A stretch of 64,000 nt of DNA from Candidatus Moraniibacteriota bacterium (GCA_003483065.1 DMWY01000001.1:72606-136605); one strand, 5' to 3'. Positions 1,416 to 64,000 are shown, counted from the stretch's first letter. The notes: generated by a model not told the origin, from the letters alone. Made by a program: numbers and translations.

Positions 1416-3440
1416 ATGATGAATAAAAAGCAGAAATTTATTATCGATATAGTTCCATTGACCAAAATTCCGATGTCCTCCCATCAGTCTTTTTCCTATT
1501 TGTCAGATGCCAAAATTTCAATCGGAACATTGGTGTCGATTCCCCTTTTCCATAGAAGCGTGGAAGGGATTGTTTTGGGGACGAGGCAGGATTTTGAAAG
1601 ATTAGGTAATATTGAACTAAAAAAAATTGAAAAAATAATCGTTGAAAATTTTCTCTCTGATAGTCAAATAGAATTAGCGAAATTTATTTCCGATTACTAC
1701 ATTTCTCCCTTGGGCGTAGTGATGAAAAATTTTGTCCCGAAAAGAGCTAAAATAAGGAACAAAAAACCTGCCTCATCGGCAGGCAAGCAAAAAGAAATAA
1801 TTTTAACGCCTGAACAGAAAAATGCGATTGCGAAAATTTCACTACAAACTAAAAGCTACAAACTAGAAGCTAACAGCTATCTCCTCTTTGGTCCGGCTGG
1901 ATCGGGGAAAACTGAGGTTTATATAAATTCAATTTTGGAACTGCGAAAACAAAATAAAAATTTCCAATTCCTGATTATCATCCCAGAAAAAACTTTGACT
2001 CCACAGGCTATGGAAAGATATGGTGCATATTTTGAACCGGAAGAAATTGTTGTTCTTTCAAGTAATATTTCCAAAGGACAATTTTATTCTAATTGGAAAA
2101 AAATTCAATCTGGCGAGGCAAAACTTATTCTTGGCACTCGAATGGCGGTTTTTGCACCTTTCAAAAAATTAGGACTAATCGTGATTGATGAAGAGCAAGA
2201 TATGTCTTTCAAACAATGGGACATGAATCCGCGTTATGATGCTCGAACGGTAGCAGAAAAATTAGCCGAGATTCATGAGTGTAAAATTGTTCGCGGTAGT
2301 GCTACGCCAAGTATCGAATCCTATTATCGCGCAATTAACAAAGATTTAAAATTAGTAGAATTGCCGAAATTGCTTTTAGCGGACAGTCCGCTAGAGGGCG
2401 GACTGTCCGCGTCTATAAAAACACCCACTACTTCTATTGTCGATATGAAAAAAGAACGCTGGACGAAGAACTATACTTGCATATCAAGAAAACTAAAAGG
2501 TGAAATTGAATATGCGCTAAAAAATAAACAGCAATCAATTTTGTTCATCAATCGCCAAGGAATGAGCAGTTTTTCAATTTGTGAAGCGTGTAAGGCAGTG
2601 CTCAAATGTCCCAAATGTGAGCGGGCGCTAGTATATGAAAAAGGCGGATTCTACAAATGCAATCATTGTAATTATAAGACGAGTATTTTTCCAAAATGCG
2701 AGAAATGTGGTGGGATAAGTTTCAAAAATGTTGGATTAGGAACGCAAAAAGTAGAAAAAGAAATTTCGAGTTTGTTTCCTTTGGCCAAAATAATTGTGGC
2801 TGACACAGCCTCTTCAAAAGAACTAAATTTTCATGAAAAAATTTATGGCGCTTTTTCCAAAGGTGAGGCGGATATTTTGATTGGAACGCAGATGATTTCC
2901 AAGGGTTGGGATTTGCCTCGTGTGTCATTGGTTGGTATAATAGATGCAGATAATCTTTTGTCATTTCCTGATTTTTCGGCTGAAGAAAAGGCCTTTCAAA
3001 TAATCTCTCAGCTTGCCGGCAGAGTGAATCGCCCTGGTGCACGTTTTCCTGGAGAAGTTGTTATCCAAACATATCAACCGGAAAACAAAATCATCCAACT
3101 GGCATCAGAAAATAATTTTCAAAGTTTTTTTCAAAAGATAATCGAAGAACGAAAAGCTTTGAATTTTCCGCCTTATGGGAAAATTGTGAAATTAGTTTTT
3201 CAGGATTATAATTTTGAAAAAGTGGAAAAAGAAAGTCAAGACACATTTGAGAGTTTTGAAAATATAAAAGGGTTAAAGATTTCCGAACCACATACTCCCC
3301 TGCTCTCAAAAATAAGAGGACGCTGGCGAAAGCAAATGATTGTCAAATTTCCAGATAAAATTCCAATTGAATTAGAAAAAGAAATCAGAAAGCTCAAATC
3401 AGGCTGGGTAATAGATCGAGATCCAATATCTATCATTTGA
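1416..3440 (+). CDS. priA: primosomal protein N' (PriA helicase)
   Basis: Walker A (FGPAGSGKTEVY), DEAD-like VIDEEQD, Cys-rich zinc-binding segment (CEACK...CPKCE...CNHC...CEKC), helicase C-terminal motifs (QLAGRVNR). Confidence 0.9.
   Translation: MMNKKQKFIIDIVPLTKIPMSSHQSFSYLSDAKISIGTLVSIPLFHRSVEGIVLGTRQDFERLGNIELKKIEKIIVENFLSDSQIELAKFISDYYISPLGVVMKNFVPKRAKIRNKKPASSAGKQKEIILTPEQKNAIAKISLQTKSYKLEANSYLLFGPAGSGKTEVYINSILELRKQNKNFQFLIIIPEKTLTPQAMERYGAYFEPEEIVVLSSNISKGQFYSNWKKIQSGEAKLILGTRMAVFAPFKKLGLIVIDEEQDMSFKQWDMNPRYDARTVAEKLAEIHECKIVRGSATPSIESYYRAINKDLKLVELPKLLLADSPLEGGLSASIKTPTTSIVDMKKERWTKNYTCISRKLKGEIEYALKNKQQSILFINRQGMSSFSICEACKAVLKCPKCERALVYEKGGFYKCNHCNYKTSIFPKCEKCGGISFKNVGLGTQKVEKEISSLFPLAKIIVADTASSKELNFHEKIYGAFSKGEADILIGTQMISKGWDLPRVSLVGIIDADNLLSFPDFSAEEKAFQIISQLAGRVNRPGARFPGEVVIQTYQPENKIIQLASENNFQSFFQKIIEERKALNFPPYGKIVKLVFQDYNFEKVEKESQDTFESFENIKGLKISEPHTPLLSKIRGRWRKQMIVKFPDKIPIELEKEIRKLKSGWVIDRDPISII
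2379..2410. repeat. GC-rich perfect palindrome (GCGGACAGTCCGC-tagagg-GCGGACTGTCCGC) embedded in-frame in priA
   Basis: 13-bp arms are exact reverse complements. ~70% GC in a ~34% GC genome. Encodes ...ADSPLEGGLSAS..., an extra loop relative to PriA homologues. Confidence 0.7.
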
Positions 3441-9522: not shown

Positions 9523-9531
9523 AATTTTCTT

Positions 9532-9564
9532 TACTAATTACTAATTTATTAAGAATATACTAAT
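9532..9564. repeat. TACTAAT heptamer array upstream of obg
   Basis: Three TACTAAT copies at 9532, 9539 and 9558. Related to the TACGAAT arrays at 11045, 54288 and 58173. Confidence 0.5.
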
Positions 9565-9614
9565 GCATTATTGTTTATATACTATACTGCAAATTTATTA
9601 ATTAGTAAAGGAAA

Positions 9615-9666
9615 TAAAAAAAACGCCCCGTGAGGAACGTTAGCAACGTTTTTTCTCCTCACGGGG
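9615..9666 (-). terminator. Rho-independent terminator downstream of yidD
   Basis: 11-bp GC-rich stem CCCCGTGAGGA / TCCTCACGGGG (9626-9636 / 9656-9666) followed on the minus strand by a U-run (A-run 9615-9623 on plus). Confidence 0.6.
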
Positions 9667-11040: not shown

Positions 11041-11044
11041 TCCT

Positions 11045-11093
11045 TACGAATTACGAATCTATACGAATCTATACGAATGTACGAATTTACGAA
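11045..11093. repeat. TACGAAT heptamer array upstream of cysS
   Basis: Five TACGAAT copies spaced 7-11 bp within 50 bp. Confidence 0.6.
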
Positions 11094-12731: not shown

Positions 12732-13695
12732 AAATTTTTGGTTAAAATTGAAAAAACCAATCTTGGCTCTGGCGCCGATGGCAGGCATAACGGATAGTGC
12801 GTTCCGTCAGATTTGCCAAAGATATGGAGCGGATGTGGTGTATTCGGAAATGGCGAGCGTGAGCGCGCTTTTTTTCAAGCCACAAAAAACTTTGGAGTTG
12901 GTAAAATTTGATAAAACCGAGCGACCATACGTCGTACAACTTTTTGGCAAGGAGCCAGCACATTTTGCCAAAGCGACTAAAATTATTTCGCAAATAGTGA
13001 AACCGGATGGCATCGACATCAATTTTGGTTGTCCGGCTAAAAAAGTTTTTGGTCATGGTTCAGGTTGCGCGCTAATGATGCAAAAAGAATTGGCACGTGA
13101 AATTATTTCGGCCGTTTGCGAAAATACTAAATTGCCGGTATCGATAAAAATTCGTGCTGGCGTCAAGGATACGACCGCCTTAGAATTTGTCAAAAACACA
13201 GCTGATCTCCCCTACTCGGCTATTATGATTCACGGTCGAACATATGAGGGTGGGTTTTCCGGCCCGCTAAATTTCAAACTTGTTGAAAAAATAAAAAAAA
13301 TGTTTCCTGATAAAATTGTTTTGGCTAATGGTGGGATAAATTCAGCCGAGGATGGTGCGAAAATATTACAAAATTATCCCCTTCTTGATGGTCTTGGAAT
13401 TGCTCGGGGCGCTTGGGGAAGGCCGTGGATATTTGAGGAAATCAAAGATTTATTGAATTGTGTAGAGACGCCCCGACGGGGCGTCTCTACGGGGGCAAAT
13501 TATGATTTCCCACGCATCAAAAAAATCATGCTTCTTCATGCAAAATTAATCCACAAAGACAAGGGTCAACAAGGTCTTTTTGAAATTAGAAAGCATATGA
13601 GCTGGTACGTCAAAGGCTTCCCTGGGGCTTCAGAACTGCGTAGAAAACTAGTTATGGCGAATAGCTTAGAGGAAATAAAGGAAATTCTAAGCTAA
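12724..13695 (+). CDS. dusB: tRNA-dihydrouridine synthase
   Basis: LAPMAGITDSAFR, NFGCP and catalytic Cys region of the Dus TIM barrel. GTG start as listed; the true start may be slightly downstream. Confidence 0.85.
   Translation: MNKNFWLKLKKPILALAPMAGITDSAFRQICQRYGADVVYSEMASVSALFFKPQKTLELVKFDKTERPYVVQLFGKEPAHFAKATKIISQIVKPDGIDINFGCPAKKVFGHGSGCALMMQKELAREIISAVCENTKLPVSIKIRAGVKDTTALEFVKNTADLPYSAIMIHGRTYEGGFSGPLNFKLVEKIKKMFPDKIVLANGGINSAEDGAKILQNYPLLDGLGIARGAWGRPWIFEEIKDLLNCVETPRRGVSTGANYDFPRIKKIMLLHAKLIHKDKGQQGLFEIRKHMSWYVKGFPGASELRRKLVMANSLEEIKEILS
13464..13488. repeat. GC-rich perfect palindrome (AGAGACGCCCCG-a-CGGGGCGTCTCT) embedded in-frame in dus
   Basis: 12-bp arms are exact reverse complements. 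Encodes ...VETPRRGVSTG..., an extra segment relative to Dus homologues. Confidence 0.7.
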
Positions 13696-19529: not shown

Positions 19530-19700
19530 ATTTTCATTTCCCCCTTCTCCCTTAGGGAGAAGGTGCCCAAAGGGCGGATGAGGGAGAAACTAAGATTGTT
19601 TTATTATTTTAAATTTAATTCTTCCCTCTCTGTCGCGAGTACGCGACATCTCTCCCAAAGGGAGAGAGGGAATCTTTTGTTTTTTCTATTCTATCACACC
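19530..19700 (-). promoter_or_regulatory. GC-rich multi-hairpin leader upstream of rfbC-rfbB
   Basis: Hairpins CCTTCTCCC-tta-GGGAGAAGG (19543-19563), GCCC-aaa-GGGC (19565-19577) and TTCCCTCTCT...AGAGAGGGAA (19622-19672, with nested GTCGCG-agta-CGCGAC). A GGGGG run 13 nt before the rfbC ATG lies inside the first hairpin. Confidence 0.35.
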
Positions 19701-19715
19701 CAAAAATTAAATAAA

Positions 19716-19745
19716 GCCCGACCAGAAAATTCTCTGGTCGGGCTT
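19716..19745 (-). terminator. Rho-independent terminator
   Basis: GCCCGACCAGA-aaattc-TCTGGTCGGGC (11-bp stem) followed on the minus strand by a T-rich tract. Confidence 0.5.
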
Positions 19746-27963: not shown

Positions 27964-28437
27964 TTATTGGCAGAGGGTGGTTTTGAAAATCCACCCGGGA
28001 TCTCTTTGAATTTTTATTACTCCGCGAGAGTTGAGTTCTGCGGGGATAGGATGTGTCGTATCAATCGCCCAAAACTGCCATGTTGGGACATTGTTTTTCC
28101 AAACAAGCGCTTTGATTTGGAACTCTGTCCCAGGAGGGACACCGTCCAATTTTCCATAAAATAGCATTTGTTTAGAGACTGGCAACTGATAAGCCGCCAG
28201 TTTTGATTCGCCAACGCCGTAAGCGACTAAAAACATTTGTGGGAGCTTATTTTCCCCTAACACGAAACGATCCCACTCGACCACTTCTTCATCATTACAG
28301 CCCCAAGTGATGAATTTGGAGCCTTCCACCCAAAGGGTCTCAGTAGTTGGGTTATAATTAATATACAGTCCGGTTGCGGAAGATAAGCTGGCGAAAAAAA
28401 ACAAACAAAACACTGCAATAAAAGCATATTTTTTCAT
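27964..28437 (-). CDS. secreted hypothetical protein
   Basis: Cleavable-looking signal peptide MKKYAFIAVFCLFFFASLSSATG. Confidence 0.5.
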   Translation of the reverse strand: MKKYAFIAVFCLFFFASLSSATGLYINYNPTTETLWVEGSKFITWGCNDEEVVEWDRFVLGENKLPQMFLVAYGVGESKLAAYQLPVSKQMLFYGKLDGVPPGTEFQIKALVWKNNVPTWQFWAIDTTHPIPAELNSRGVIKIQRDPGWIFKTTLCQ

Positions 28438-28674: not shown

Positions 28675-28724
28675 TCGTTAAAATTATCGCAATCCGACGA
28701 GCCTTTGGCTGGCGGGGTTGAAAG

Positions 28725-42275: not shown

Positions 42276-44129
42276 CTATTTTTTCAATACTGACAAAAAA
42301 GCTTCTGGCGGGATAGAAACTCGCCCAATATTCTTCATTTTCTTTTTGCCTTTTTTCTGTTTTTCTAAAAGTTTTCTTTTTCTAGTGATATCCCCACCAT
42401 AAAGTCCACTAATCACATCTTTTCGAAAAGCCTTAATAGTTTCTCTGGCAATTATTTTTCCACCAATAGAAGCCTGGATAGCCACTTGAAAATTTTGTCG
42501 AGGGATAACATCTTTGAGTTTTGTCACTACTCTTTTTCCTTCTGAATTAGCCTTTTCTCTTGGCACAATCCGCGAAAAAGCTTCAATTTTTTCTTCCGCT
42601 ACTAAAATGTCCATTTTTACCAAATCATATGAGCGATAATCTTTGACTTCATAATTCATCGAAGCATAGCCCGAAGAAGCACTTTTCAAATCATCATGCA
42701 AATTTGTCACCACATCTGTGAGTGGACAATCAAATTTAATCACCATTCTTTCGCTGTCCAGATATTCAGTGTCTTGATACTGTGCTCGAGTATTGTTCAT
42801 TACTTCCATAATCGGACCTAGATAATTAGAAGGAGAAACAATTTCCAAGCTCACATATGGCTCAAAAACCTCTTCTATTTCAGAAGGATCAGGAAATTCT
42901 GTCGGTGAATAAACTTTGATTCGCCCCTTATCATTTCGCAGTTTTATTTCATAAACAACACTGGGAGTAGTGACGGTTGGATTGATTTGGAATTCTCTTT
43001 GCAAGCGAGATTGAATAATTTCTAAATGCAAAAGTCCCAAAAATCCGCAACGAAAACCACGTCCCAAGGCTAAATTAGATTCTGGTTCAAAAACAAATGA
43101 GGCATCATTGAGCTTGAGTTTGTCGAGTGAATCACGCATCAAATTATAGTCATCACCTTCGACTGGATAGAAACTGGCATAAACCATCGGCACCACCTCC
43201 TTGTACCCAGGTAGTGGAACTACCTGGGTCGCAGACTCACGCAGACTTGACGCTGACCTTCGCTGAATTTTTTCCGCGTTTTTCCGCGTTCCGTCCGCGT
43301 TAGTCCGCGACGTAATCGTATCGCCTACCTTGCATTCCCCGACGCTTTTGAGTCCTGTGGCAATATAGCCAATTTCACCTACGGAAAGTTTTTCTGCTTT
43401 CACAAGTTCTGGCTTGAAATAACCTACTTCAATCACATCACTTTTTTTGTCATTTATCATCATAATAATTTCTTCTTCGGCCCGAATTTCGCCGTCAAAA
43501 ACCCGCACATGCGCCAACACACCCTTATAGGTATCATATTTTGAATCAAAAATAAGTGCCCGCAAAGTTTTTTGAGAATCTCCAATAGGCGCCGGAATTT
43601 TTTCCACAATTATTTCCAAAAGTTTGGCAACGCCCTGTCCGGTCTTACCAGAAACTTCCAAAATTTCTTCTTCTTTGCACCCCAAGATATGCACTATTTC
43701 TTTTTTGACTTTTTCTACGTTTGCATTTGGCAAATCAATTTTGTTGACCACAGGAATAATTTCCAAATTATGCTCAATGGCTTGATAGAGATTAGCCAAG
43801 GTTTGCGCCTGCACACCCTTGGTCGCATCCACCAAAAGCACTGCCCCTTCTACCGCTGCGAGTGACCGCGAAACTTCATACCCAAAATCCACATGTCCTG
43901 GGGTGTCAATTAAGTTGAAAATATACTCCTTATAATTCATGCGCACGGGTTGCATCTTAATGGTAATCCCTCGTTCCCGTTCCAAATCCATCTGATCCAA
44001 AAGTTGCTCTTTCATTTTGCGTTTTTCAATCGTCCCTGTCATTTCCAACATCCGATCAGACAAAGTCGATTTCCCATGGTCAATGTGAGCGATTATGCAA
44101 AAATTTCGAATATTGTTTTTTTCTGACAT
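42276..44129 (-). CDS. lepA: translation elongation factor 4 (LepA)
   Basis: G-domain (AHIDHGKST, DTPGHVDF) and the LepA-specific C-terminal domain. Confidence 0.9.
   Translation of the reverse strand: MSEKNNIRNFCIIAHIDHGKSTLSDRMLEMTGTIEKRKMKEQLLDQMDLERERGITIKMQPVRMNYKEYIFNLIDTPGHVDFGYEVSRSLAAVEGAVLLVDATKGVQAQTLANLYQAIEHNLEIIPVVNKIDLPNANVEKVKKEIVHILGCKEEEILEVSGKTGQGVAKLLEIIVEKIPAPIGDSQKTLRALIFDSKYDTYKGVLAHVRVFDGEIRAEEEIIMMINDKKSDVIEVGYFKPELVKAEKLSVGEIGYIATGLKSVGECKVGDTITSRTNADGTRKNAEKIQRRSASSLRESATQVVPLPGYKEVVPMVYASFYPVEGDDYNLMRDSLDKLKLNDASFVFEPESNLALGRGFRCGFLGLLHLEIIQSRLQREFQINPTVTTPSVVYEIKLRNDKGRIKVYSPTEFPDPSEIEEVFEPYVSLEIVSPSNYLGPIMEVMNNTRAQYQDTEYLDSERMVIKFDCPLTDVVTNLHDDLKSASSGYASMNYEVKDYRSYDLVKMDILVAEEKIEAFSRIVPREKANSEGKRVVTKLKDVIPRQNFQVAIQASIGGKIIARETIKAFRKDVISGLYGGDITRKRKLLEKQKKGKKKMKNIGRVSIPPEAFLSVLKK
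43205..43312. repeat. GC-rich hairpin plus TCCGCGT direct repeats embedded in-frame in lepA
   Basis: ACCCAGGTAG-tggaa-CTACCTGGGT (43205-43229) then four TCCGCG(T) copies (43268-43312). Encodes ~20 extra residues (DGTRKNAEKIQRRSASSLRESATQV) between conserved GDTIT and PLPGYKEV. Confidence 0.65.
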
Positions 44130-44192: not shown

Positions 44193-45029
44193 TTAATCTA
44201 GCGGACTTTTAATTTTTCTCAAGGCTGGATTAGTCACTTTGGTATAAATTTGTGTTGTTCTAATGTTAGCATGCCCCAAGAGCTCTTGTACATAGCGCAC
44301 GTCTGTTCCATTTTCGAGTAAGTGTGTCGCAAAACTATGTCGAAGTGAATGAAATGTGGCTTCTTTTTTTATCCCCGCTTTTTTCATGGCATTTTCAAAA
44401 ACTTTTTGCGCTGTCCTCTCGGTTAATTTCCCCTGCCTCATCGGCAGACAAGCTCCGCGTTCACTGGCAAAAAAATAATCATTAGAATTTTTATTGGCAA
44501 TTAATTTTTCTACATCCGCCACGAGCTTTTCCGGAAAAACCGTAATGCGATCTTTGTTGCCTTTAGCTCCTTTGATATGAATGATAAGTTCCGCCAAATT
44601 TATATCCTTGATTTTCAAATTAATAATCTCACTCACGCGTAGCCCTCCAGAATATGCCAACGCCACCATTAATTTGTGTTTTTCATTGGAAATTTCCGCC
44701 AATATTTTTCCAATTTCATCTCGAGACAAAACGATCGGTAATTTACTTGGCGTTTTGGCGAAATGAATGTCAATTTTTCCTCTATATTTCAAAACATTCC
44801 AACAGAAAAAGTTTATCGCTTGCAAATTTTGATTAGTAGTTTGTGACGACTTCCCATCATCAATTTTGGACAATATATATCGCTTGATAAAATCAATGTC
44901 TACTTTTCCAAAATTATCTTTTTTGGCTTTTAGATAATTTTCAACACAAGCCGAATATGCTTTCACAGTTTTTGGACTATATTTTCTCAATCTCAACTCA
45001 TCTTCTAATTTTTTCAAATAGACGTCCAT
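44193..45029 (-). CDS. tyrosine recombinase (XerC/XerD-like integrase)
   Basis: Full catalytic set R...K...HxxR...H...Y (GGLRVSE, GAKGNKDR, HSLRHSFATH, LGHANI, TQIYTKV). 278 aa. Confidence 0.8.
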   Translation of the reverse strand: MDVYLKKLEDELRLRKYSPKTVKAYSACVENYLKAKKDNFGKVDIDFIKRYILSKIDDGKSSQTTNQNLQAINFFCWNVLKYRGKIDIHFAKTPSKLPIVLSRDEIGKILAEISNEKHKLMVALAYSGGLRVSEIINLKIKDINLAELIIHIKGAKGNKDRITVFPEKLVADVEKLIANKNSNDYFFASERGACLPMRQGKLTERTAQKVFENAMKKAGIKKEATFHSLRHSFATHLLENGTDVRYVQELLGHANIRTTQIYTKVTNPALRKIKSPLD

Positions 45030-55551: not shown

Positions 55552-56655
55552 TTATTTAACAAGGCGAAATTCCTTCCATTCCTTATCAATATATTCCTTT
55601 ATTCTAGCCTTAAATATCTCTTTGTCAAATTTAAAAACTCTTTGCCTGATATAATCCGGGTCATAATCAGAATTTTTGAATTTTCTAACTGCTTCAATTA
55701 AATCCTCAGCTGTTTGATGCGCAAAAAACACTCCTGTTTTCCCTTCTTCCATATGTTCAAGAATGTCGCCACCATCATAGGCAATAAGCGGTGTGCCTGA
55801 AGCCATAGCCTCAATAGCAGTAAGTCCAAAATCTTCTTCTTGTGGAAAGATAAACGCTTGGCAACGAGAAAAATATTTTTGCAATTCTTCGTCGCTAACT
55901 CGTCCAAGAATTTTAATATTTGGCCCAGCCATTTTTTTAAGTCTTTCCATTTCTGGTCCACGCCCAAGAATTCTAAGTGGTAATCCTAATTTATTGAAAG
56001 CTTCGATAGCAATATCAAAACGTTTATACGCCATCAAACGCCCGGCAATCAAAAAATAATCATCTTTTTCGCGACTAATTTTGAAATTATTAACATTCAC
56101 CGGCGGATTTATCACAACACTTCCTCGTCTGAAATATTTTTTTATCCGGCGCGAAACAAAAAAAGAATTAGCAATTATTTTATCCGGTCGTTCGGCGCTT
56201 ACTCGATCCCAAATCCGAATATAATTCATAAAAAATGGCACGAGCTTTTTGATAAAATTAGGAAAATAAAAATCGCGATTGTATTTTTGGCAATCATCCC
56301 AAGCAAAACGCATTGGCGTGTGCATATAACAAATATGCAAAGTTTTTGGCCCCGTAATTATGCCTTTGGCAAAACTAGAAGAATCAGATAATACAATATC
56401 ATAATCAGAAAAATCAAATTGTTCAATGGCAAAAGGCATAAATTGCGGAAAAATTCGATGCCTTCCCACCGCAAAAGGGATTTTTTGCAAAAAAGAAGTC
56501 TTGATTTTTTTGTCCGCAAAACTGCCATGCATCAGTTTTTTGCTATAAACAAGGGTGTATATTGGCGCATAGGGAAAAAGCTCACAAAAAGCTTCTAGCA
56601 CTTTTTCCGCTCCCCCATTTTGAACAAGATAATCGTGGACTAAAGCAATCTTCAT
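55552..56655 (-). CDS. glycosyltransferase family 4
   Basis: EDFGLTAIEAMASGTPLIA GT4 signature. Confidence 0.85.
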   Translation of the reverse strand: MKIALVHDYLVQNGGAEKVLEAFCELFPYAPIYTLVYSKKLMHGSFADKKIKTSFLQKIPFAVGRHRIFPQFMPFAIEQFDFSDYDIVLSDSSSFAKGIITGPKTLHICYMHTPMRFAWDDCQKYNRDFYFPNFIKKLVPFFMNYIRIWDRVSAERPDKIIANSFFVSRRIKKYFRRGSVVINPPVNVNNFKISREKDDYFLIAGRLMAYKRFDIAIEAFNKLGLPLRILGRGPEMERLKKMAGPNIKILGRVSDEELQKYFSRCQAFIFPQEEDFGLTAIEAMASGTPLIAYDGGDILEHMEEGKTGVFFAHQTAEDLIEAVRKFKNSDYDPDYIRQRVFKFDKEIFKARIKEYIDKEWKEFRLVK

Positions 56656-56747
56656 TTTAGCATATTAGCATTTTAGCATATTAGCATCAGTATTATACGC
56701 ATTTTATTTTTGTTAAAATGTTAATAAGCTAATATGTTAAAATGATC
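56656..56747 (-). promoter_or_regulatory. ATGCTAA heptamer array / tandem extended -10-like elements abutting the GT4 start codon
   Basis: The minus strand reads ...TATAATACTG ATGCTAATATGCTAAAATGCTAATATGCTAAAATG|AAG. A 14-mer unit (TGCTAATATGCTAAAA) is repeated twice, and the opposite-orientation motif TTTTTGTTAAAATGTTAA is also present. Confidence 0.45.
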
Positions 56748-58787: not shown

Positions 58788-61427
58788 TTAAGAAAGCTTT
58801 TTTAGATTATCAAGCAAATCTTTTTGCGATTTTAATTTCTCCCTGTATTCAGCAAGTTTAATCTTATTATTTTCCACAATTTCTTTCGGCGCGCTGGCGA
58901 GGAAATTTTTGTTGGCGAGAAGGGCGCTGTTTTTGGCAATCAAATTTTCCAGATTGGTAATTTCTTTGTAAAAATTTTTCTTTTCTTTTTCCACATCAAT
59001 CAATTCCGCAATATCTAAAACTATTTTCAAATCTTTTCCGGAAATTTCAATCCCCTGTTTTTTTGCATCAGAAAATTTAACTCGTCCTAATTTTTCAATT
59101 ATCTCTTGATTTTTGAGTTTTTTTGCATACGCCTCAATGATTTCACTTGGCGCAATACGATAACTAGACCGAATATTTCGAATTTTACCGATTATTTCCT
59201 GCAAGTTTTGAAATTCTTTTTCCGCTTTTTTATTAATTAGTTTTTTGTCCGATACCGGCCACTTTTCAACCATTAATATTTTGACTTTTTTATTCGTAGC
59301 ATTCGCATGTATTCGCAGATTCGCATCGCCATATATTTTTTCCGTCACAAACGGCATAAACGGATGCCAAAGTTTTAATATTTTCTCCAAAACATATCCC
59401 AAAACCTTGTCATTTTTTTCAAGTTTGTGAATTTCAAGGTACCATGAAGCCAGATCATCCCAAGTAAATTTAATGAGAATATTTTCTGCCATGGCAATAT
59501 TTTTATTCTCCAGCATTTTTGATGCTTCCAAAATCGCCTGATTAACTCGGGAAACAATCCAACTATCCGCCAAACTTTTCAAATCATGTCTAGAAATTTT
59601 TTCTTCTAGTTTAAAATTTTCATTTGAGCTGAAACTATAGCGATAGATATTCCAAAGCTTGGTCACGAAATTTCGATATTTTTCTATTTTTTCTTCATAG
59701 AGTCGCGTATCAAGTCCGGGGGTTGTATCAGTAATAAGACTCATACGAAGCGCATCCGCTCCATACTTCTCAATCATTTGCAAGGGATCAACTCCATTGC
59801 CTTTAGATTTTGACATCTTAAGACCGTCTTTATCTCTAATCAGTCCAGTGAAAAATAAATTCTTAAACGGCACCTTACCGGTTCGATATAGTCCCATCAT
59901 AATCATCTTAGAAGCCCAGAAAAAAAGTAGGTCGCGTCCTGTAACCATCATTTCGGTTGAATAAAAATCTTTATAGTCTTTGCCTTTTGGATAACCCAGA
60001 GTTGTATATGGCCATTGACCAGAAGAAAACCAAGTGTCAAAAGTATCCTGATCTTGAATCAATTCTGCTCCCTTGCATTTCGGACATTTTTTTGGCTTTT
60101 CAATTGAAACAATGTAATTCTCCTCTCCACATTTTTCACAATACCATACTGGAATTTGCGGTCCCCACCAAATTTGGCGCGAAATACACCAATCATGCAA
60201 ACCCGAAAACCATTGCGTCATTATTTTTCCAAAACTTTTCGGATAAACTTCAATCTTCCCTGTTTTGATTGCTTTCAAAGATTCTTTTTTTAGCGAATAC
60301 TTTTTTGCATCCACATTCACAAACCATTGCTTGGAAATTAGAGGCTCAATCGTTTCCTTGCAACGCTCACAAATTGATTTATTGATTTCATTCTCTTCTA
60401 TTTTTTCAATAAGGCCAAACTCAGTCAAATCGCGTACAATATTTTCCCGTGCCTCTTCAACTTTTTGCCCAACATATTTCCCGCCTAATTTTGTAATCTC
60501 GGCTTTTTCATTAATCACTTGAATTTCTTGGAGTTTATGATCCTTGCCAATTTGCCAGTCCAGCGGATCATGCGCCGGAGTAATTTTCACCGCGCCTGTA
60601 CCAAATTCCATTTCCATTCTTCTGTCCGAAATAATTGGAATTTCTCGATTTTGCAAAGGCAAGATAACGATTTTTCCCACTAATTTTTCAAAGCGCTTGT
60701 CTTTTGGATTAACTGCCACGGCCGTATCACCCAGCATCGTTTCTGGACGCGTCGTTGCAACCGTGATAAATTGCTTGGAATCTTTCAAGGGATATTTTAT
60801 ATAGTATAATTTTCCGGCTGTTTTCTTGTGAAGCACTTCCACATCTGAAAGTGCAGTGGAACATCTAGGGCACCAGTTGATTATTCTTTCTCCGCGATAA
60901 ATCATTCCGTCCTTTTCCATCTTGACAAAAGTTTCCAGTGCCCGAGAAAGAACATCTGGATCGAGTGTGAATTTTTCTCGCGACCAATCAGCGCTAATAC
61001 CAATTTTCTTTTCTTGCGCGCGCATATAGTTCGATCGATCAATACAAAAGTCATAAATCTCCTTGTAGAATTTTTCTCGCCCTAAATCATATCGGGAAAT
61101 CCCCCGTTCTGCTTTGATTTTTTTTTCATAAACTACTTGCGACTGAATTCCGGCGTGATCTTTTCCTGGAAAAAGCAAAACTTTCTCCCCTTTCATGCGA
61201 TGATAGCGACCAAAAATATCCATCACGGTGTAACCTGAAGCATGCCCAAGATGAAGCTCTCCATTAGCATTCGGTGGTGGCAAAATATTGCAATATTTTT
61301 TTCGATTTTTATCTTCAGCCCAAGGCTGACAGGTATCCGGGTTGAAAAACCCACTCTCCTCCCAGAGCTTATATATCTCGTCCTCATATTTATTCGCTTC
61401 GTATGTTTTTGAAATTTCCCTAATCAT
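58788..61427 (-). CDS. valS: valyl-tRNA synthetase
   Basis: PPPNANGELHLGHA (HIGH), KMSKSKGN, editing and anticodon-binding domains, C-terminal coiled coil. Confidence 0.9.
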   Translation of the reverse strand: MIREISKTYEANKYEDEIYKLWEESGFFNPDTCQPWAEDKNRKKYCNILPPPNANGELHLGHASGYTVMDIFGRYHRMKGEKVLLFPGKDHAGIQSQVVYEKKIKAERGISRYDLGREKFYKEIYDFCIDRSNYMRAQEKKIGISADWSREKFTLDPDVLSRALETFVKMEKDGMIYRGERIINWCPRCSTALSDVEVLHKKTAGKLYYIKYPLKDSKQFITVATTRPETMLGDTAVAVNPKDKRFEKLVGKIVILPLQNREIPIISDRRMEMEFGTGAVKITPAHDPLDWQIGKDHKLQEIQVINEKAEITKLGGKYVGQKVEEARENIVRDLTEFGLIEKIEENEINKSICERCKETIEPLISKQWFVNVDAKKYSLKKESLKAIKTGKIEVYPKSFGKIMTQWFSGLHDWCISRQIWWGPQIPVWYCEKCGEENYIVSIEKPKKCPKCKGAELIQDQDTFDTWFSSGQWPYTTLGYPKGKDYKDFYSTEMMVTGRDLLFFWASKMIMMGLYRTGKVPFKNLFFTGLIRDKDGLKMSKSKGNGVDPLQMIEKYGADALRMSLITDTTPGLDTRLYEEKIEKYRNFVTKLWNIYRYSFSSNENFKLEEKISRHDLKSLADSWIVSRVNQAILEASKMLENKNIAMAENILIKFTWDDLASWYLEIHKLEKNDKVLGYVLEKILKLWHPFMPFVTEKIYGDANLRIHANATNKKVKILMVEKWPVSDKKLINKKAEKEFQNLQEIIGKIRNIRSSYRIAPSEIIEAYAKKLKNQEIIEKLGRVKFSDAKKQGIEISGKDLKIVLDIAELIDVEKEKKNFYKEITNLENLIAKNSALLANKNFLASAPKEIVENNKIKLAEYREKLKSQKDLLDNLKKLS
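59292..59330. repeat. ATTCGCA/TGCGAAT triple repeat inside valS (in-frame)
   Basis: ATTCGTAGC ATTCGCATGT ATTCGCAGATTCGCATCGCC. Encodes GDANLRIHANATN. Resembles the intergenic repeats at 17869-17950 and 36229-36267 (CTGCGAAT..ACATGCGAAT). Confidence 0.45.
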
Positions 61428-61452
61428 CTTAACATTTTAGCATATTAACATT
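61428..61452 (-). promoter_or_regulatory. ATGYTAA heptamer array / extended -10-like element abutting the valS start codon
   Basis: The minus strand reads GGAAATGTTAAAATGTTAATATGCTAAAATGTTAAG|ATG. Confidence 0.4.
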
Positions 61453-61812
61453 TTAACATTTCCTTATTGATTCCATTGATTTCCATAGCATGGCACCAAT
61501 TTCGTCTGCCAACTTGATTGATTTTTTATAGTCATTGTCAGTATAATATTTTTCAACTAAAGCAAAATGCAGGAGATACATCGATTCTTTTAAAGATCCG
61601 TATGATATTTCCCAGAAATTTAGTTTAACCATTTGCTTTTTTCTAGCAAAACCTTCTAAGTAATTCAGAATTACAGACAAAGACGACCGCCTTAATTGAG
61701 AAGTTACTCCATACAATTCTTCTTTCGGAAAATTCTTAGTAATCCTATAGCACAAATGTGCATATTCATCCATTTTAATTTTTAATTGATGCGGAAAATC
61801 ATTATTGGTCAT
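61453..61812 (-). CDS. four-helix-bundle protein (TIGR02436 / 23S rRNA intervening-sequence protein family; DGR Avd-like fold)
   Basis: YRITKNFPKEELYGVTSQLRRSSLSVILNYLEGFARK...ISYGSLKESMYLL signature of this family. Confidence 0.75.
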   Translation of the reverse strand: MTNNDFPHQLKIKMDEYAHLCYRITKNFPKEELYGVTSQLRRSSLSVILNYLEGFARKKQMVKLNFWEISYGSLKESMYLLHFALVEKYYTDNDYKKSIKLADEIGAMLWKSMESIRKC

Positions 61813-61860
61813 GTTTATTTTTGTTAAAATGCTAAAATGTTAGCATGCTAAAATGTTTTT
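61813..61860. promoter_or_regulatory. ATGCTAA/TTAGCAT heptamer array between the four-helix-bundle gene and pheT
   Basis: TTTATTTTTGTTAAAATGCTAAAATGTTAGCATGCTAAAATG; shares TTTATTTTTGTTAAAATG with 56706-56730. Confidence 0.4.
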
Positions 61861-64000
61861 TTATTTTCTAATCTCCAACCCTAATTCTTTTTCCAATCCT
61901 GCGACAATTTTTCCCATCACTTCATCCACTTCTTTGTTTTCTAGTGTTCGCTCTGGCGCGCCAAATTCAATGTGATAAGCGAAGCTCGTTACTCCGTCCT
62001 TAAAAAAGACATCAAACATAGAAACATTCAAGACTAAATCTCCGCCGATTTTCTTGATTAGTTTTTGAATTTCAATGGCTTTGGTTTCGCCTTTGGCAAG
62101 CATGGAAATGTCCCGGGTGATGGTTGGAAATTTTTGCAAAGCTTTATAAACAAGTTCTTTTTGAGAAATTTTCAAAAGTTTTTCCGTGTCCAATTCACAA
62201 ACTGCCACTCTTTTTCCAATTTTATATTTTCCCAAAACCAAAGGATTAATCTCCCCTATCATTCCGATTTTTTCGCCATCAACCAAAATCTCTGCACTTC
62301 TTCCTGCGTGAGCAAGATGATTTTTTGAAAGCTTAACTTCGTTGAATGAAATCGAATTTTCATCAACGCTAATTTTCTCCAACAAATTTTCTGTTGCGCC
62401 TTTTATACTATAAAAAGTTTCCGCATTTTTGCTTGCCCCGTGTTTCGCTTCAGCGAAATTTACGGGGTCCTTTTCTAAAACTTGCGCCATAACGAACATT
62501 CTTTTTTCTTCTGTTCCTGTCATTCTGAACTCGTTTCGGAATCCAGATCCTGAAACAAGTTCAGGATGACAAAGGTAAACTTTTCCAATTTCAAAAATAT
62601 TCAAACTTTCAAAATTCTTGAGGTTAGTTTTAATGTTTTTCAAAATATTTGGAATAAGACTCACTCGAACATATTTTTGATCCGGATTCATTGGACTAGA
62701 AAGTTCAAAATGTTTCACGTTATCCAAGGCGCAATTCTTAGCATCAATTTCAGAATAGAAAGAATAATTATACATTTCATCAAATCCAAAACCAACCGAA
62801 ATTTCTCCTAATCTTCGCTCAAAAGACAAAACTTCATTTATCTTAGCGGGAATAATAGGTTCAACAAGCGGACGCGGTTCAATTTTTTCATATCCCCAAA
62901 TCCGTCCAATCTCTTCAATCAAATCTTCTTGAGTTTTAAGATCAACTCTAAACGTAGGAACAATACACACTACCTTATATGGTTGAATGGTAGTGCCGAT
63001 TCCTAATAAATTTAATATTCTTATGATTTCTTTTTTTGGAATTATTTCTCCTAAAAGAGAGTTTACATATTCCAAATCTAATTTTATTTTACAAGGCTTA
63101 ATTTTATTTGGATAAACATCAATCACTCCTTCGAGCTTTGCGTCAGCGGTATGCTCCAAAACTTCTATGATTCTAACAATAGCTTTTTCGGCTAAATTTG
63201 GATCAATCTCTTTTTCAAAACGATCAGATGATTCAGTTTTCACGCCCAGTCTTGTTCTTGAGCGTCTAATATTAACGGCATCAAAATTAGCCGCTTCCAA
63301 AATTATTGTCTTAGTATTTTCGTTTATACCTGAATCTTTCCCACCCATAATTCCAGCTAACGCCAACGGCGTTTCACCATTAGTAATAAGTAAATCCTGA
63401 TCTGATAATTTTAATTTAGTTTCATCCAATAATTCCATCTCTTCATTCTCCTTAGCTTTTCTTACTACTATTTGGATTTTATTTGTTTCTTGTTTCTTGT
63501 TTCTTGTTTCTTGGCCTGAGATTTTGGAAAAATCGAAGGCATGCATTGGTTGCCCAAGTTCCAGCATCACATAATTAGTTGCGTCAACAACATTGTTAAT
63601 CGGACGAATTCCAGAAGCTTCCAATCTTTGCTTCATCCAACTTGGCGAATCTTTAATTTCTACATTTTCCATTACTGCGCCGATATAGCGAGAACAAAGC
63701 TTTCTATCTTCAATTTTTACAATTAATTTTTTGGATTTTTTATTAGGCAATTTCAGTCCATCAAAATCATATTCAAAATTCTTATTTTCCAGCACTGAAA
63801 TTTCTCGCGCCACTCCAACATGACTGGTTGCATCGTGCGCTCGATCTGGCAAAACTTTTATTTCAAAAATCGTGTCATCTTCCACGCCCAAATATTTTTT
63901 AGCCGGCTCGCCAATTTTAGCTTTAGAATCTAGAATAAAAATTCCACTATGATCAGCTCCAAGTCCTAACTCGTCTAACGCACAAAGCATACCAAAAGAT
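61861..64000 (-). CDS. pheT: phenylalanyl-tRNA synthetase beta subunit (5' end beyond the window)
   Basis: B3/B4, B5, catalytic-like and C-terminal anticodon-binding (FDV) domains. The N-terminal tRNA-binding domain lies beyond position 64000. Confidence 0.9.
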   Translation of the reverse strand, partial: SFGMLCALDELGLGADHSGIFILDSKAKIGEPAKKYLGVEDDTIFEIKVLPDRAHDATSHVGVAREISVLENKNFEYDFDGLKLPNKKSKKLIVKIEDRKLCSRYIGAVMENVEIKDSPSWMKQRLEASGIRPINNVVDATNYVMLELGQPMHAFDFSKISGQETRNKKQETNKIQIVVRKAKENEEMELLDETKLKLSDQDLLITNGETPLALAGIMGGKDSGINENTKTIILEAANFDAVNIRRSRTRLGVKTESSDRFEKEIDPNLAEKAIVRIIEVLEHTADAKLEGVIDVYPNKIKPCKIKLDLEYVNSLLGEIIPKKEIIRILNLLGIGTTIQPYKVVCIVPTFRVDLKTQEDLIEEIGRIWGYEKIEPRPLVEPIIPAKINEVLSFERRLGEISVGFGFDEMYNYSFYSEIDAKNCALDNVKHFELSSPMNPDQKYVRVSLIPNILKNIKTNLKNFESLNIFEIGKVYLCHPELVSGSGFRNEFRMTGTEEKRMFVMAQVLEKDPVNFAEAKHGASKNAETFYSIKGATENLLEKISVDENSISFNEVKLSKNHLAHAGRSAEILVDGEKIGMIGEINPLVLGKYKIGKRVAVCELDTEKLLKISQKELVYKALQKFPTITRDISMLAKGETKAIEIQKLIKKIGGDLVLNVSMFDVFFKDGVTSFAYHIEFGAPERTLENKEVDEVMGKIVAGLEKELGLEIRK
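63485..63512. repeat. (GTTTCTT)x4 heptanucleotide tandem repeat inside pheT
   Basis: Four exact tandem copies; encodes QETRNKKQETN on the minus strand. Confidence 0.7.

What the first reader, a model, noticed from the sequence alone, without database searches (positions are those of the whole stretch)
2379..2410. GC-rich perfect palindrome inserted in-frame in priA (first of a recurring class)
A 32-bp element made of two 13-bp exact inverted arms (GCGGACAGTCCGC / GCGGACTGTCCGC) sits inside priA. It adds roughly 10 residues (ADSPLEGGLSAS) at a position where PriA homologues have a short linker. Its GC content is about double the local background. Comparable in-frame GC-rich palindromes occur in dus (13464-13488) and lepA (43205-43312), and a related repeat occurs in valS (59292-59330). 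This resembles in-frame insertion of palindromic elements as described for Rickettsia palindromic elements (RPEs). It could instead be excision footprints or hairpin-forming sites of an unknown process. The sequences differ between genes, so it is not a single repeat family.
Basis: partly seen in the sequence, partly recalled or inferred. Interest (0 to 1): 0.7.

Follow-up and report, generated by a model that had tools for sequence, protein, structure and literature searches.

The report
In-frame palindromic repeat element in priA
A 32-base GC-rich hairpin inside the priA gene of a Candidatus Moranbacteria (CPR) genome is a real, lineage-specific, in-frame copy of a short palindromic repeat that also occurs in other genes and between genes in related genomes, much like the Rickettsia palindromic elements but far smaller.

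Summary
Window 2379-2410 is a perfect 13+6+13 hairpin, 72% GC in a 36% GC genome, in frame in priA. Dinucleotide shuffles give about 0.01 such hairpins; the window has four.

It is an insertion. PriA orthologues 86-91% identical lack it or carry unrelated hairpins at the same site. The site is a disordered loop in the AlphaFold model.

It belongs to a dispersed family: two inverted copies of (A)GCGGAC-W-GTCCGC(T) around a variable 5-21 nt spacer. A 63%-identical PriA has the same arms at the same site. Low-GC metagenome contigs carry 24 such copies. Some are in frame in Dus, GT4 glycosyltransferases and a MiaB-MiaA junction. About two thirds lie outside long ORFs, often terminator-like. One non-orthologous copy is 31/32 identical.

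A second family, CTGCCTCATCGGCAG, occurs twice in the window (priA and a xerC-like gene). The dus and lepA inserts are also lineage-specific hairpins. The valS insert is lineage-specific but tandem, not palindromic.

Best reading: a small REPIN/MITE-like selfish hairpin repeat, translated where it lands in frame in tolerant loops. The mobilising enzyme is unknown.

Novelty: new variant of a known kind (RPE-like). No report for CPR bacteria was found.

The parts
2379..2410 (+). Focal element. Two inverted 13-nt units, GCGGACAGTCCGC and GCGGACTGTCCGC, around the spacer TAGAGG. In frame in priA, encoding ADSPLEGGLSA (residues 322-332).
   Evidence: Sequence. Perfect 13-bp arms. Chance expectation. 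Fold. Absent from orthologues 86-91% identical. Same arms in L081, L085 and 24 metagenome copies.
1416..3440 (+). Host gene priA (primosomal protein N', 674 aa).
   Evidence: Pfam PriA_3primeBD, DEAD, Helicase_C and PriA_C. 100% identical to the Moranbacteria GW2011_GWF2_36_839 protein. AlphaFold model with pLDDT <50 at residues 323-333.
1767..1783 (+). Second small hairpin in priA, CCTGCC-TCATC-GGCAGG (encodes PASSAG). It lies in the linker between the 3'-DNA-binding domain and the helicase. It is a copy of the CTGCCTCATCGGCAG family.
   Evidence: Exact 15-mer found twice in the window. Orthologues have other sequences at this site, including a different hairpin CCTCTCCC-GAA-GGGAGAGG. pLDDT <50 at residues 119-122.
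13462..13490 (+). Perfect palindrome GTAGAGACGCCCCG-A-CGGGGCGTCTCTAC, in frame in dus (encodes VETPRRGVST).
   Evidence: Dus assignment by Pfam. Absent in L081 (87% identical Dus). Replaced in L082 by a different composite hairpin.
43205..43229 (-). Perfect 11-bp hairpin in lepA. One arm is the conserved PLPGY codons. The other arm is a new inverted copy of them.
   Evidence: Comparison with the empty site in L205.
43228..43311 (-). Long imperfect hairpin in lepA. Its arms are four tandem units of about 10 nt (ACGCGGAC type) and their inverted partners (GTCTGCG type). Together with the small hairpin it replaces a 37-nt linker and adds 19 aa.
   Evidence: Fold of the 141-nt region holding both hairpins: -62.6 kcal/mol (sense), z = -6.2; antisense -54. 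Peptide. Absent from LepA orthologues 93-96% identical (P0123-P0126, L205). Same family in L206, L207, L208.
44433..44453 (-). 7-aa in-frame insert (ACLPMRQ) in a xerC-like integrase gene. Contains the second window copy of CTGCCTCATCGGCAG.
   Evidence: Absent in L205 and L206, present in L207. Phage_integrase by Pfam.
59292..59330 (-). Tandem GCGAAT-type units in valS giving a 9-aa insert (NLRIHANAT). Not a hairpin.
   Evidence: Absent from ValS orthologues 80-88% identical (P0242-P0246). Similar inserts at the same site in other lineages.
62518..62571 (-). Imperfect palindrome (GTCATTCTGAAC... type) in frame in pheT, encoding CHPELVSGSGFRNEFRM. Whether it is an insertion was not established.
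   Evidence: PheT by Pfam. The PDB alignment shows no clean gap at this position.
19543..19745 (.). Intergenic cluster of GC-rich perfect hairpins (19543-19563, 19649-19667, 19714-19745). These are extragenic hairpins of the same general kind. The last one is terminator-like.
56652..56745 (.). Intergenic ORF-less hairpin whose arms are tandem 8-nt units (CATTTTAG / CATATTAG).
   Evidence: (I2).
61425..61855 (-). Hairpin with arms of the same 8-nt units. It encloses a 119-aa ORF (61453-61812) of the 23S rRNA-intervening-sequence / four-helix-bundle protein family. It lies in the valS-pheT spacer. It is the ORF-bearing counterpart of 56652-56745.
   Evidence: TIGR02436 8e-25 and PF05635 1e-24.

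Best explanation
The 32-bp sequence is one copy of a short, GC-rich, hairpin-forming repeat family. The family unit is the 13-15-nt palindrome (A)GCGGAC-W-GTCCGC(T). A full element is two units in inverted orientation around a variable 5-21-nt spacer. This is the architecture of a miniature REP doublet (REPIN).

Copies are scattered through Moranbacteria-like, low-GC genomes. Most lie between genes, often in terminator-like positions. A minority lie inside genes. The only genic copies seen are in frame and free of stop codons, and those whose position could be checked lie in loops that tolerate extra residues. The unit has no stop codon in any frame on either strand, so one insertion in three is automatically readable.

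In priA the element landed in the disordered loop between two beta-strands that link the two helicase lobes. It is transcribed and translated as ADSPLEGGLSA and is probably neutral or nearly so for the protein. That loop is a hot spot: related PriA genes carry many unrelated hairpin inserts there.

Shown here: the element is real, non-random, lineage-specific, in frame and in a low-confidence loop; identical arms recur at non-orthologous loci in other genomes.

Inferred: copies arise by copy-and-paste of the hairpin through a single-stranded intermediate. This would be driven by a trans-acting enzyme not encoded in this window (a Y1/RAYT-type transposase or a hairpin-associated nuclease), or by hairpin-driven template switching or gene conversion. 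Palindrome-mediated deletion would then remove copies again, giving the patchy distribution. A second, local process adds to the same class of indels: inverted duplication of flanking sequence by template switching.
For: Reality and non-randomness.

Insertion:
- PriA orthologues at 86-91% identity lack the element (L082, L001) or have unrelated AT-rich hairpins there (L083, L084, L002). Only the window cluster, P0003/L081 and P0023/L085 among the 120 listed PriA homologues carry it.
- E. coli PriA has a 7-residue shorter loop at this position.
- The AlphaFold model has pLDDT <50 for residues 323-333, between strands 312-315 and 338-343.

Dispersed family:
- L085 PriA is 63% identical in protein, 65% in DNA and 46% at third codon positions. 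It has the same site and 26 of 26 arm nucleotides identical, but a 19-nt spacer. P is about 1e-5 under uniform divergence.
- A metagenome scan found 24 truly inverted copies in contigs of 24-56% GC, all but one at or below 45%.
- Pfam-confirmed hosts are Dus (L152), GT4 glycosyltransferases at two different positions (L088/L190; L148 and L196) and a MiaB-MiaA junction (L202). Another copy lies upstream of a cupin-type GPI gene (L182).
- L202 has two copies within 14 kb.
- The L182 copy is 31/32 identical to the window's.
- About 15 copies lie in short-ORF or intergenic DNA, several followed by T runs.

Class behaviour:
- A second family with an exact 15-mer occurs at six places in about 850 kb, two of them orthologous. 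Two are in-frame copies in this window.
- Of 16 internal indels of >=4 aa between genomes 77-98% identical, 7 have a perfect stem >=8 bp against 11% of length-matched controls. Seven have a fold z <= -2. About 11 have at least one hairpin allele.
- The dus, lepA and xerC-like inserts are each absent from close relatives.

Independent assemblies: samples from NCBI, JGI, ENA and Logan carry the same element, so it is not an assembly artefact.
Against: - No transposase, RAYT or nuclease gene was found among 50 window ORFs, so the agent of mobility is not identified.
- No target-site duplication or conserved target is visible around the 24 copies.
- Only one copy of this family is present in the 64-kb window, so the copy number in this genome is unknown.
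- The metagenome scan demanded perfect arms, so decayed copies, which a selfish family should leave behind, could not be counted. Within about 830 kb of low-GC loci almost no one-mismatch units were seen. That pattern fits either young copies or active maintenance of the sequence.
- The same element sits at the same priA site in lineages only 63% identical. This could also mean long-term selective retention rather than repeated insertion.
- Coding copies were recognised through intact ORFs, so frame-breaking copies would have been scored as intergenic (ascertainment bias).
Confidence: 0.7

Rival explanations
1. Local origin by template switching. The palindrome was created on the spot during replication, when the nascent strand folded back or switched template. 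This produces an inverted copy of neighbouring sequence (quasi-palindrome or fold-back mutation). It was not imported from elsewhere.
For: This mechanism fits other members of the class. In lepA, one arm of the perfect 11-bp hairpin is the conserved PLPGY codons and the other arm is a new inverted copy of them. At the focal priA site in L083 and L002, the right arm (CTTACTAC...) is native sequence that is also present in the insert-free L082, and the left arm is new. Arms stay perfect, as hairpin-templated correction would predict.
Against: The focal element is 72% GC in 36% GC surroundings and has no similarity to its flanks, so it is not a copy of neighbouring sequence. Identical 13-15-nt arms, and a 31/32 identical whole element, occur at non-orthologous loci in other genomes. 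A purely local origin cannot produce that.
Confidence: 0.1
2. Selected cis-acting element. The hairpin is kept because it does something at the nucleic-acid level. Candidates are a ribosome pause between the two helicase lobes, a binding site for a dimeric protein that recognises GCGGAC-N-GTCCGC, an RNase site, or an internal terminator or attenuator for the downstream def-fmt genes.
For: The arms are 100% conserved between PriA genes that are 46% identical at third codon positions. The hot spots in PriA and LepA lie in variable loops or linkers, and many lineages carry some hairpin there. The 141-nt lepA region that contains both hairpins folds better as sense RNA (-62.6 against -54 kcal/mol), with G-U pairs on the sense strand. 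Intergenic copies often look like terminators.
Against: The closest relatives (86-91% identical) lack the element or have unrelated sequences, and some have no insert at all (L082, L001). The same element occurs in unrelated genes and in all three reading frames. No T run follows the focal hairpin, and the terminator scan does not flag it. Only 3 of the 120 PriA homologues carry it.
Confidence: 0.12
3. Untranslated insert. The hairpin is cut out of the mRNA or bypassed by the ribosome, so that PriA lacks the 11 residues. Precedents are rRNA intervening sequences removed by RNase III and the 'byp' elements of Magnusiomyces mitochondria.
For: The genome does carry an IVS-type hairpin with an IVS-protein ORF. 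Byp-like elements are GC-rich inserts in AT-rich genomes (own knowledge of Lang et al. 2014).
Against: Every genic copy found, about 9 of this family and 5 of the CTGCC family, is a multiple of three and stop-free. Skipped sequence has no need to be. Ascertainment bias applies to this count. RNase III cutting would split the mRNA. No take-off and landing codon pair or stop codon is present.
Confidence: 0.04
4. Native linker. The residues are ancestral PriA sequence that was lost in other lineages. Alternatively, the palindrome is an assembly artefact.
For: The linker is hypervariable, so homology is hard to trace.
Against: Composition, perfect dyad symmetry and identical copies in other genes argue against native origin. 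Independent assemblies from different samples and pipelines carry the element.
Confidence: 0.03

Closest known systems
Rickettsia palindromic elements (RPEs; Ogata et al. 2000; reviewed in PMC10969869)
   Same: Hairpin-forming repeats in a small, AT-rich genome of a host-dependent bacterium. Several families exist. Copies occur both between genes and in frame inside unrelated housekeeping genes. The added peptides sit where the fold tolerates them. No transposase is known.
   Different: RPEs are about 100-150 bp and add 30-50 residues; this element is 32 bp and adds about 11. RPE families are confined to Rickettsia. No sequence relation was tested or is expected. The arms here are perfect palindromes, and each half is itself a palindrome.
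REP elements and REP doublets (REPINs) mobilised by RAYT tyrosine transposases (own knowledge: Nunvar et al. 2010; Bertels and Rainey 2011)
   Same: A short GC-rich palindromic unit. Two units in inverted orientation around a short spacer form a longer hairpin. There is no target-site duplication. Most copies are extragenic and terminator-like. The dus element even starts with GTAG and ends with CTAC, like the REP head.
   Different: REPs are, by definition and in practice, extragenic and present in hundreds of copies. The REP unit is 20-40 nt and imperfect. A flanked RAYT gene defines the system. No RAYT was found in the window, and the copy number in this genome is unknown.
Bacterial MITEs that make in-frame fusions (ERIC, Coxiella QMITE; PMC10969869, PMC5896051)
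   Same: Non-autonomous inverted-repeat elements that sometimes land in frame in genes.
   Different: MITEs have terminal inverted repeats, target-site duplications and an identifiable parent IS. None of these was found here. This element is much shorter than any described MITE.
GC clusters, double-hairpin elements and repetitive hairpin elements of AT-rich mitochondrial genomes (yeast var1 GC cluster and Allomyces DHEs from own knowledge; sponge RHEs PMC2800124; Nematomorpha coding palindromes PMC6649704)
   Same: GC-rich palindromic clusters in AT-rich genomes. They spread by an unknown route, and some are read through in frame inside protein genes.
   Different: Those are organellar. In Nematomorpha both arms encode conserved protein sequence, whereas here the whole hairpin is extra sequence in a loop.
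rRNA intervening sequences (IVS) carrying four-helix-bundle (PF05635) or GxxExxY (TIGR04256) ORFs
   Same: The window has a hairpin with tandem-unit arms around a PF05635 ORF (61425-61855), and an ORF-less hairpin with the same units (56652-56745). A relative's LepA carries a GxxExxY ORF between arms of ACGCGGAT units. ORF-less hairpins of ACGCGGAC units sit in lepA of the window. GCGGAC is also the core of the priA palindrome.
   Different: IVSs sit in rRNA helices and are excised by RNase III. Here the hosts are protein genes and spacers. The link between the focal perfect palindrome and these tandem-arm hairpins rests on a shared 6-nt core only.
Quasi-palindrome template-switch mutations (own knowledge: Lovett laboratory work; Monttinen and Loytynoja 2022)
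   Same: They create and perfect inverted repeats. This explains the lepA 11-bp hairpin and the AT-rich hairpins at the priA hot spot.
   Different: They copy neighbouring sequence. The focal element is foreign in composition and is shared with other loci.

Membership tests
Rickettsia palindromic elements (RPE) | Palindromic, hairpin-forming repeat | tested here: met
   Perfect 13-bp arms; RNA fold -30.1 kcal/mol, z = -5.9.
Rickettsia palindromic elements (RPE) | In-frame insertion into unrelated protein genes at structurally tolerant sites | tested here: met
   In frame in priA in a loop with pLDDT <50. Family copies are in frame in Dus, GT4 glycosyltransferases and a MiaB-MiaA junction.
Rickettsia palindromic elements (RPE) | Length about 100-150 bp, encoding a conserved peptide of 30-50 aa | tested here: not met
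   32 bp and about 11 aa. Family copies are 30-56 bp.
Rickettsia palindromic elements (RPE) | Sequence membership in RPE-1 to RPE-10 of Rickettsia | not tested
   No RPE sequences were compared. The host is a CPR bacterium.
REP / REPIN-RAYT system | Short GC-rich palindromic unit present as inverted doublets around a short spacer | tested here: met
   Two inverted 13-15-nt units with spacers of 5-21 nt in 24 copies.
REP / REPIN-RAYT system | Extragenic location and high copy number in one genome | tested here: inconclusive
   About 15 of 24 family copies are outside long ORFs, but the focal copy is genic. There is one copy in this 64-kb window and two in 14 kb of L202. The whole genome was not available.
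REP / REPIN-RAYT system | Conserved GTAG-type head on the unit | tested here: not met
   The focal unit is preceded by TTA, not by a GTAG head. The unrelated dus palindrome does have GTAG...CTAC.
REP / REPIN-RAYT system | A RAYT (Y1 transposase) gene in the genome, flanked by the repeats | not testable with these tools
   None among 50 window ORFs scanned against Pfam. The rest of the genome could not be read.
MITE | Terminal inverted repeats plus target-site duplication and a related autonomous IS | tested here: not met
   The inverted arms are the whole element. No direct repeats flank the 24 copies. No IS was found in the window.
Intrinsic terminator | GC-rich hairpin followed by a T/U run | tested here: not met
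   No T run follows the focal hairpin, and the scan does not list it. Several intergenic family copies do have T runs.
Template-switch (quasi-palindrome) product | One arm is pre-existing local sequence and the other is its inverted copy | tested here: not met
   Not met for the focal element: both arms are foreign in composition and shared with other loci. Met for lepA 43205-43229 and for the L083/L002 priA hairpins.
IVS-type hairpin element with ORF | Long hairpin arms enclosing a four-helix-bundle or GxxExxY ORF | tested here: not met
   The focal element has a 6-nt loop and no ORF. Such elements do exist nearby (61425-61855) and in a relative's lepA (L207).

The most novel reading that the evidence does not exclude
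CPR (Moranbacteria-type) genomes host a previously undescribed system of hairpin-shaped selfish elements that colonise protein-coding genes in frame. ORF-bearing forms carry a GxxExxY PD-(D/E)XK nuclease or a four-helix-bundle IVS protein between arms made of tandem recognition units such as ACGCGGAC. These forms would mobilise, or home together with, a swarm of ORF-less derivatives. The derivatives shrink down to minimal double palindromes like the priA element, whose core is the same GCGGAC. Together with template switching, these elements would account for most length variation in conserved proteins of this lineage. They would be the protein-gene counterpart of the rRNA insertions for which CPR bacteria are known.
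Probability: 0.2. Interest if true: 0.8.

Novelty: new variant of a known kind. Interest (0 to 1): 0.6.

Why it matters
In-frame colonisation of housekeeping genes by palindromic repeats has been treated as a peculiarity of Rickettsia. The same behaviour appears here in a CPR bacterium. The elements are a fifth of the RPE size, belong to several families and cluster at recurrent hot spots. They accompany about two thirds of the in-frame indels that separate close relatives. This suggests that hairpin insertion and hairpin-driven template switching are a main source of protein length change in these reduced genomes.

There are practical consequences. Such inserts inflate apparent divergence in marker genes used for CPR phylogeny (LepA, ValS, PriA). 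They create spurious lineage-specific loops in structure predictions. They can fuse neighbouring genes, as in the MiaB-MiaA ORF of L202.

ORF-bearing and ORF-less hairpins of one family occur side by side, and a nuclease ORF is embedded in frame in LepA of a relative. Together these give a concrete, testable candidate for how such repeats move. That question is still open for RPEs and for mitochondrial GC clusters.

Tried and rejected
- Chance: rejected by shuffles.
- Assembly artefact: rejected, because the same element appears in independent NCBI, JGI, ENA and Logan assemblies.
- tRNA or known RNA family at or near the site: none. Rfam found only RNase P at 58296-58644.
- Internal terminator: the focal hairpin is not flagged and has no T run.
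- DNA-uptake-sequence-like motif: rejected. The full 13-mer unit occurs only in priA in 64 kb. The hexamer GCGGAC/GTCCGC is only about 2.5-fold enriched (22 observed, 8.7 expected), and six of the 22 lie in the priA and lepA elements.
- Raw count of metagenome pattern hits as a measure of family size: rejected. 109 of 133 matches are direct repeats with a 9-nt spacer, mostly from plant-associated samples, and are an unrelated repeat.
- My first impression that nearly every indel is a hairpin: toned down by the controlled count to 7 of 16 strict and about 11 of 16 lenient.
- Search for a transposase, RAYT or nuclease in the window: nothing beyond a XerC-like integrase.
- tblastn with the GxxExxY domain against the window and all loci: only L207 itself.
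- pheT palindrome as an insertion: could not be shown, because the PDB alignment has no clean gap.
- A split cysS in L082 as a possible frame-breaking element: it is an unrelated frameshift with no hairpin.
- Literature searches for CPR/Patescibacteria combined with palindromic, in-frame or MITE terms: no relevant paper.
- One look-up (P0054) returned no DNA.
Full report
**What is there.** Window 2379-2410 reads GCGGACAGTCCGC-TAGAGG-GCGGACTGTCCGC. It lies in the 674-aa ORF 1416..3440(+), which has the PriA domain set. The ORF is 100% identical to primosomal protein N' of Candidatus Moranbacteria bacterium GW2011_GWF2_36_839, a CPR bacterium. The element starts at codon 322, is in frame and stop-free, and encodes ADSPLEGGLSA. 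Each 13-nt arm is itself a 6+1+6 palindrome. The element is 72% GC in a 36% GC window. It folds into a 14-bp stem: RNA -30.1 kcal/mol, z = -5.9; DNA -19 kcal/mol, z = -6.0.

**Chance expectation.** Perfect hairpins with stem >=11 bp and GC >=55% number four in the window, against a mean of 0.01 in 100 dinucleotide shuffles. The four are priA 2379-2410, dus 13462-13490, lepA 43205-43229 and intergenic 19714-19745.

**It is an insertion in a tolerant loop.**
- In an alignment of 36 Moranbacteria-type PriA proteins, the segment between LELPxLxL and TxIVDMKKERW varies from no extra residues to about 60.
- At the DNA level, L082 (87% identical) and L001 (86%) have no insert there. L083, L084 and L002 (82-90%) have unrelated AT-rich hairpins. 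Only L081 (89%) has the same element, differing by one base in the spacer.
- Among the 120 listed PriA homologues only three carry the ADSP...GLSA peptide.
- E. coli PriA has a loop 7 residues shorter at this position.
- An AlphaFold model (mean pLDDT 81) gives pLDDT <50 for residues 323-333, between strands 312-315 and 338-343 that link the helicase lobes.

**It belongs to a dispersed family.**
- L085 encodes a PriA only 63% identical (65% in DNA, 46% at third codon positions). It carries AGCGGACAGTCCGCT ... AGCGGACTGTCCGCT at the same site with a 19-nt spacer. All 26 arm bases are identical to the window, while the flanks are unrelated.
- Of 133 matches, 109 are direct repeats with a 9-nt spacer, mostly from plant-associated samples. 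I set these aside as an unrelated repeat.
- The other 24 are true inverted doublets (A centre paired with T centre) in contigs of 24-56% GC, all but one at or below 45%.
- Pfam confirms in-frame copies in a Dus (L152, ADSPLSSGLSA), in GT4 glycosyltransferases at two different positions (L088/L190; L148 and L196), and at a MiaB-MiaA junction that reads as one ORF (L202).
- L202 has two copies within 14 kb.
- L182 has a copy 31/32 identical to the window's, upstream of an unrelated gene.
- About 15 copies lie outside long ORFs, several followed by T runs.
- Most copies are flanked A...T, so the unit is 15 nt. No target-site duplication is visible.
- The unit has no stop codon in any frame, and copies are read as ADSP/ADCP, RTVR or GQSA/GLSA.

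**The class.**
- *dus.* The perfect palindrome GTAGAGACGCCCCG-A-CGGGGCGTCTCTAC is absent from L081 (87% identical). At the same site L082 has a different composite hairpin: GTCATTGCGAG ... CTCGCAATGAC with a nested GTCCCGA-TTTTA-TCGGGAC.
- *lepA.* 43 aligned orthologues show three hot spots with diverse inserts. The window's site-2 insert (+19 aa) is absent from proteins 93-96% identical (P0123-P0126) and from L205, and is present in L206 and L207. It consists of two parts. The first is a long hairpin whose arms are four tandem ACGCGGAC-type units and their inverted partners. The 141-nt region holding both hairpins folds at -62.6 kcal/mol as sense RNA and -54 as antisense. The second is a perfect 11-bp hairpin in which one arm is the conserved PLPGY codons and the other a new inverted copy of them.
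- *valS.* The flagged repeat is a tandem array with no hairpin. It is nevertheless a 9-aa insert missing from orthologues 80-88% identical.
- *Second family.* The exact 15-mer CTGCCTCATCGGCAG occurs at 1768 (priA domain linker, PASSAG) and at 44433 (xerC-like gene, a 7-aa insert absent from L205 and L206). It also occurs in L001 priA at a third site, in L083 gltX, near a gene end in L082, and in L207 xerC.
- *Peptide traces.* Peptides of the LPxRQxG type mark this family at five different PriA positions and in ValS.
- *Controlled count.* I counted internal indels of >=4 aa between the window and ten loci from relatives. Of 16, 7 have a perfect stem >=8 bp in the longest allele, against 11% of 567 length-matched controls from the same genes. 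Seven have a fold z <= -2. About 11 have at least one hairpin allele. The rest are low-complexity linkers.
- *Coding enrichment.* The hairpins are not enriched in coding DNA, which is about 86% of the window.

**How it most likely works.**
- *Shown.* The element is a discrete, foreign-composition, perfectly symmetric insert that recurs with identical arms at unrelated loci. Genic copies are in frame in loops. Its distribution among close relatives is patchy.
- *Inferred.* It is a selfish or neutral REPIN/MITE-like hairpin repeat that spreads by copy-and-paste. It is filtered by selection, so that only readable copies in tolerant loops persist. It is lost again by palindrome-mediated deletion.
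- *Unknown.* The agent is not identified. Fifty window ORFs scanned against Pfam include no transposase or nuclease other than a XerC-like integrase.
- *A second process.* Inverted duplication of flanking sequence by template switching clearly contributes to the class (lepA small hairpin; AT-rich priA hairpins in L083 and L002). It cannot explain the focal element.
- *Other rivals.* The rivals are a selected RNA or DNA signal, an untranslated or bypassed insert, a native linker, and an artefact. Each is weighed in its own section of this report, and none fits as well.

**A lead on the partner.** The valS-pheT spacer holds a 119-aa ORF of the 23S rRNA-intervening-sequence / four-helix-bundle family (PF05635 1e-24, TIGR02436 8e-25). 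It lies between inverted arms made of tandem 8-nt units. An ORF-less hairpin with the same units lies at 56652-56745. In L207, LepA contains an in-frame 155-aa insertion that includes a GxxExxY PD-(D/E)XK domain (TIGR04256 1e-35), between arms of ACGCGGAT units. ORF-less hairpins of ACGCGGAC or ATGCGGAC units sit at two lepA sites in L208 and at site 2 in the window. GCGGAC is also the core of the priA palindrome. This suggests ORF-bearing and ORF-less pairs, but the link to the focal element rests on a 6-nt motif only.

**Comparison with known systems.** In behaviour the element matches Rickettsia palindromic elements. It fails RPE membership on size and taxon. In architecture it matches REP doublets (REPINs), but the GTAG head, the high extragenic copy number and the RAYT gene are unmet or untestable. 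MITE criteria (target-site duplication, parent IS) are not met. Mitochondrial GC clusters, hairpin elements and coding palindromes are functional analogues. Full-text searches found no description of such inserts in CPR bacteria.

**Verdict.** This is a real feature. It is a new variant of a known kind, of moderate to good interest.

Noticed in passing
window 61425-61855: A 119-aa ORF (61453-61812, minus strand) of the 23S rRNA-intervening-sequence / four-helix-bundle protein family. It sits between inverted arms built of tandem 8-nt units (CATYTTAR), in the spacer between valS and pheT. It looks like an IVS-type hairpin element outside rRNA.
   Followed up: partly
window 56652-56745: An ORF-less hairpin whose arms are made of the same 8-nt units as the 61425-61855 element. 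It lies between two glycosyltransferase genes and is a possible non-autonomous counterpart.
   Followed up: partly
L207 1212-1676 (LepA of Moranbacteria CG23, protein P0127): A 155-aa in-frame insertion in the G domain of LepA that contains a GxxExxY / PDDEXK_3 nuclease domain. It is flanked by arms of four tandem ACGCGGAT units. The same protein is recorded on 14 contigs.
   Followed up: partly
window 1768-1782 and 44433-44447: The exact 15-mer CTGCCTCATCGGCAG (a 5-bp stem hairpin) occurs twice in the window, both times in frame in genes (priA and a xerC-like integrase). It recurs at other loci in L001, L082, L083 and L207.
   Followed up: yes
window 46140-46320: An intergenic region that folds very stably (-71 kcal/mol over 181 nt, long GCGCGCCTGA / TCAGGCGCGC closing stem). 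It has no Rfam match and only weak partial conservation in L206. It may be an unannotated RNA or another hairpin element.
   Followed up: partly
window 28000-30650: A GC-richer island (43% against 36%). It holds two ORFs of about 310 aa (28725-29657 and 29685-30620, minus strand) with no Pfam hits. A strong hairpin lies at 30706-30795.
   Followed up: no
window 58169-58284 and 58296-58644: The bacterial RNase P RNA (Rfam, 127.9 bits) is immediately preceded by an AT-rich hairpin whose arms are tandem TTACTAAT / TACGAAT units. Similar unit arrays occur at 9524-9615 and 11044-11093.
   Followed up: no
L202 10297-10342: A copy of the focal element sits exactly at the junction of miaB and miaA with no stop codon, so the two genes read as one 834-aa ORF. 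That ORF also contains LPTGQAG-type and AT-rich hairpin inserts.
   Followed up: partly
L086-L204 (metagenome loci, e.g. L087, L093, L113): The same 13-mer GCGGACWGTCCGC is abundant as direct repeats with a 9-nt spacer in contigs mostly from plant-associated metagenomes. This is probably an unrelated repeat, possibly from plant genomes. It dominates the raw pattern hits.
   Followed up: partly
window 62518-62571: An imperfect palindrome of the GTCATTCTGAAC... type lies in frame in pheT. Related GTCATT-headed hairpins occur in L082 dus. Whether the pheT copy is an insertion could not be decided.
   Followed up: partly
L206 lepA, 63-nt insert (HPVEYPAGRDNFAKQNLFHRV): A clean 63-nt in-frame insert with outer 13-bp arms enclosing two small hairpins (a double-hairpin layout). 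It is absent from the window, L205 and L207. P0126 carries a closely similar insert at the same site and P0218 an insert of similar length.
   Followed up: partly
L082 18994-20465: cysS is annotated as two ORFs in this relative. The junction shows a frame change upstream of 19740 with no hairpin. It is probably a sequencing error or a real frameshift, unrelated to the elements.
   Followed up: partly
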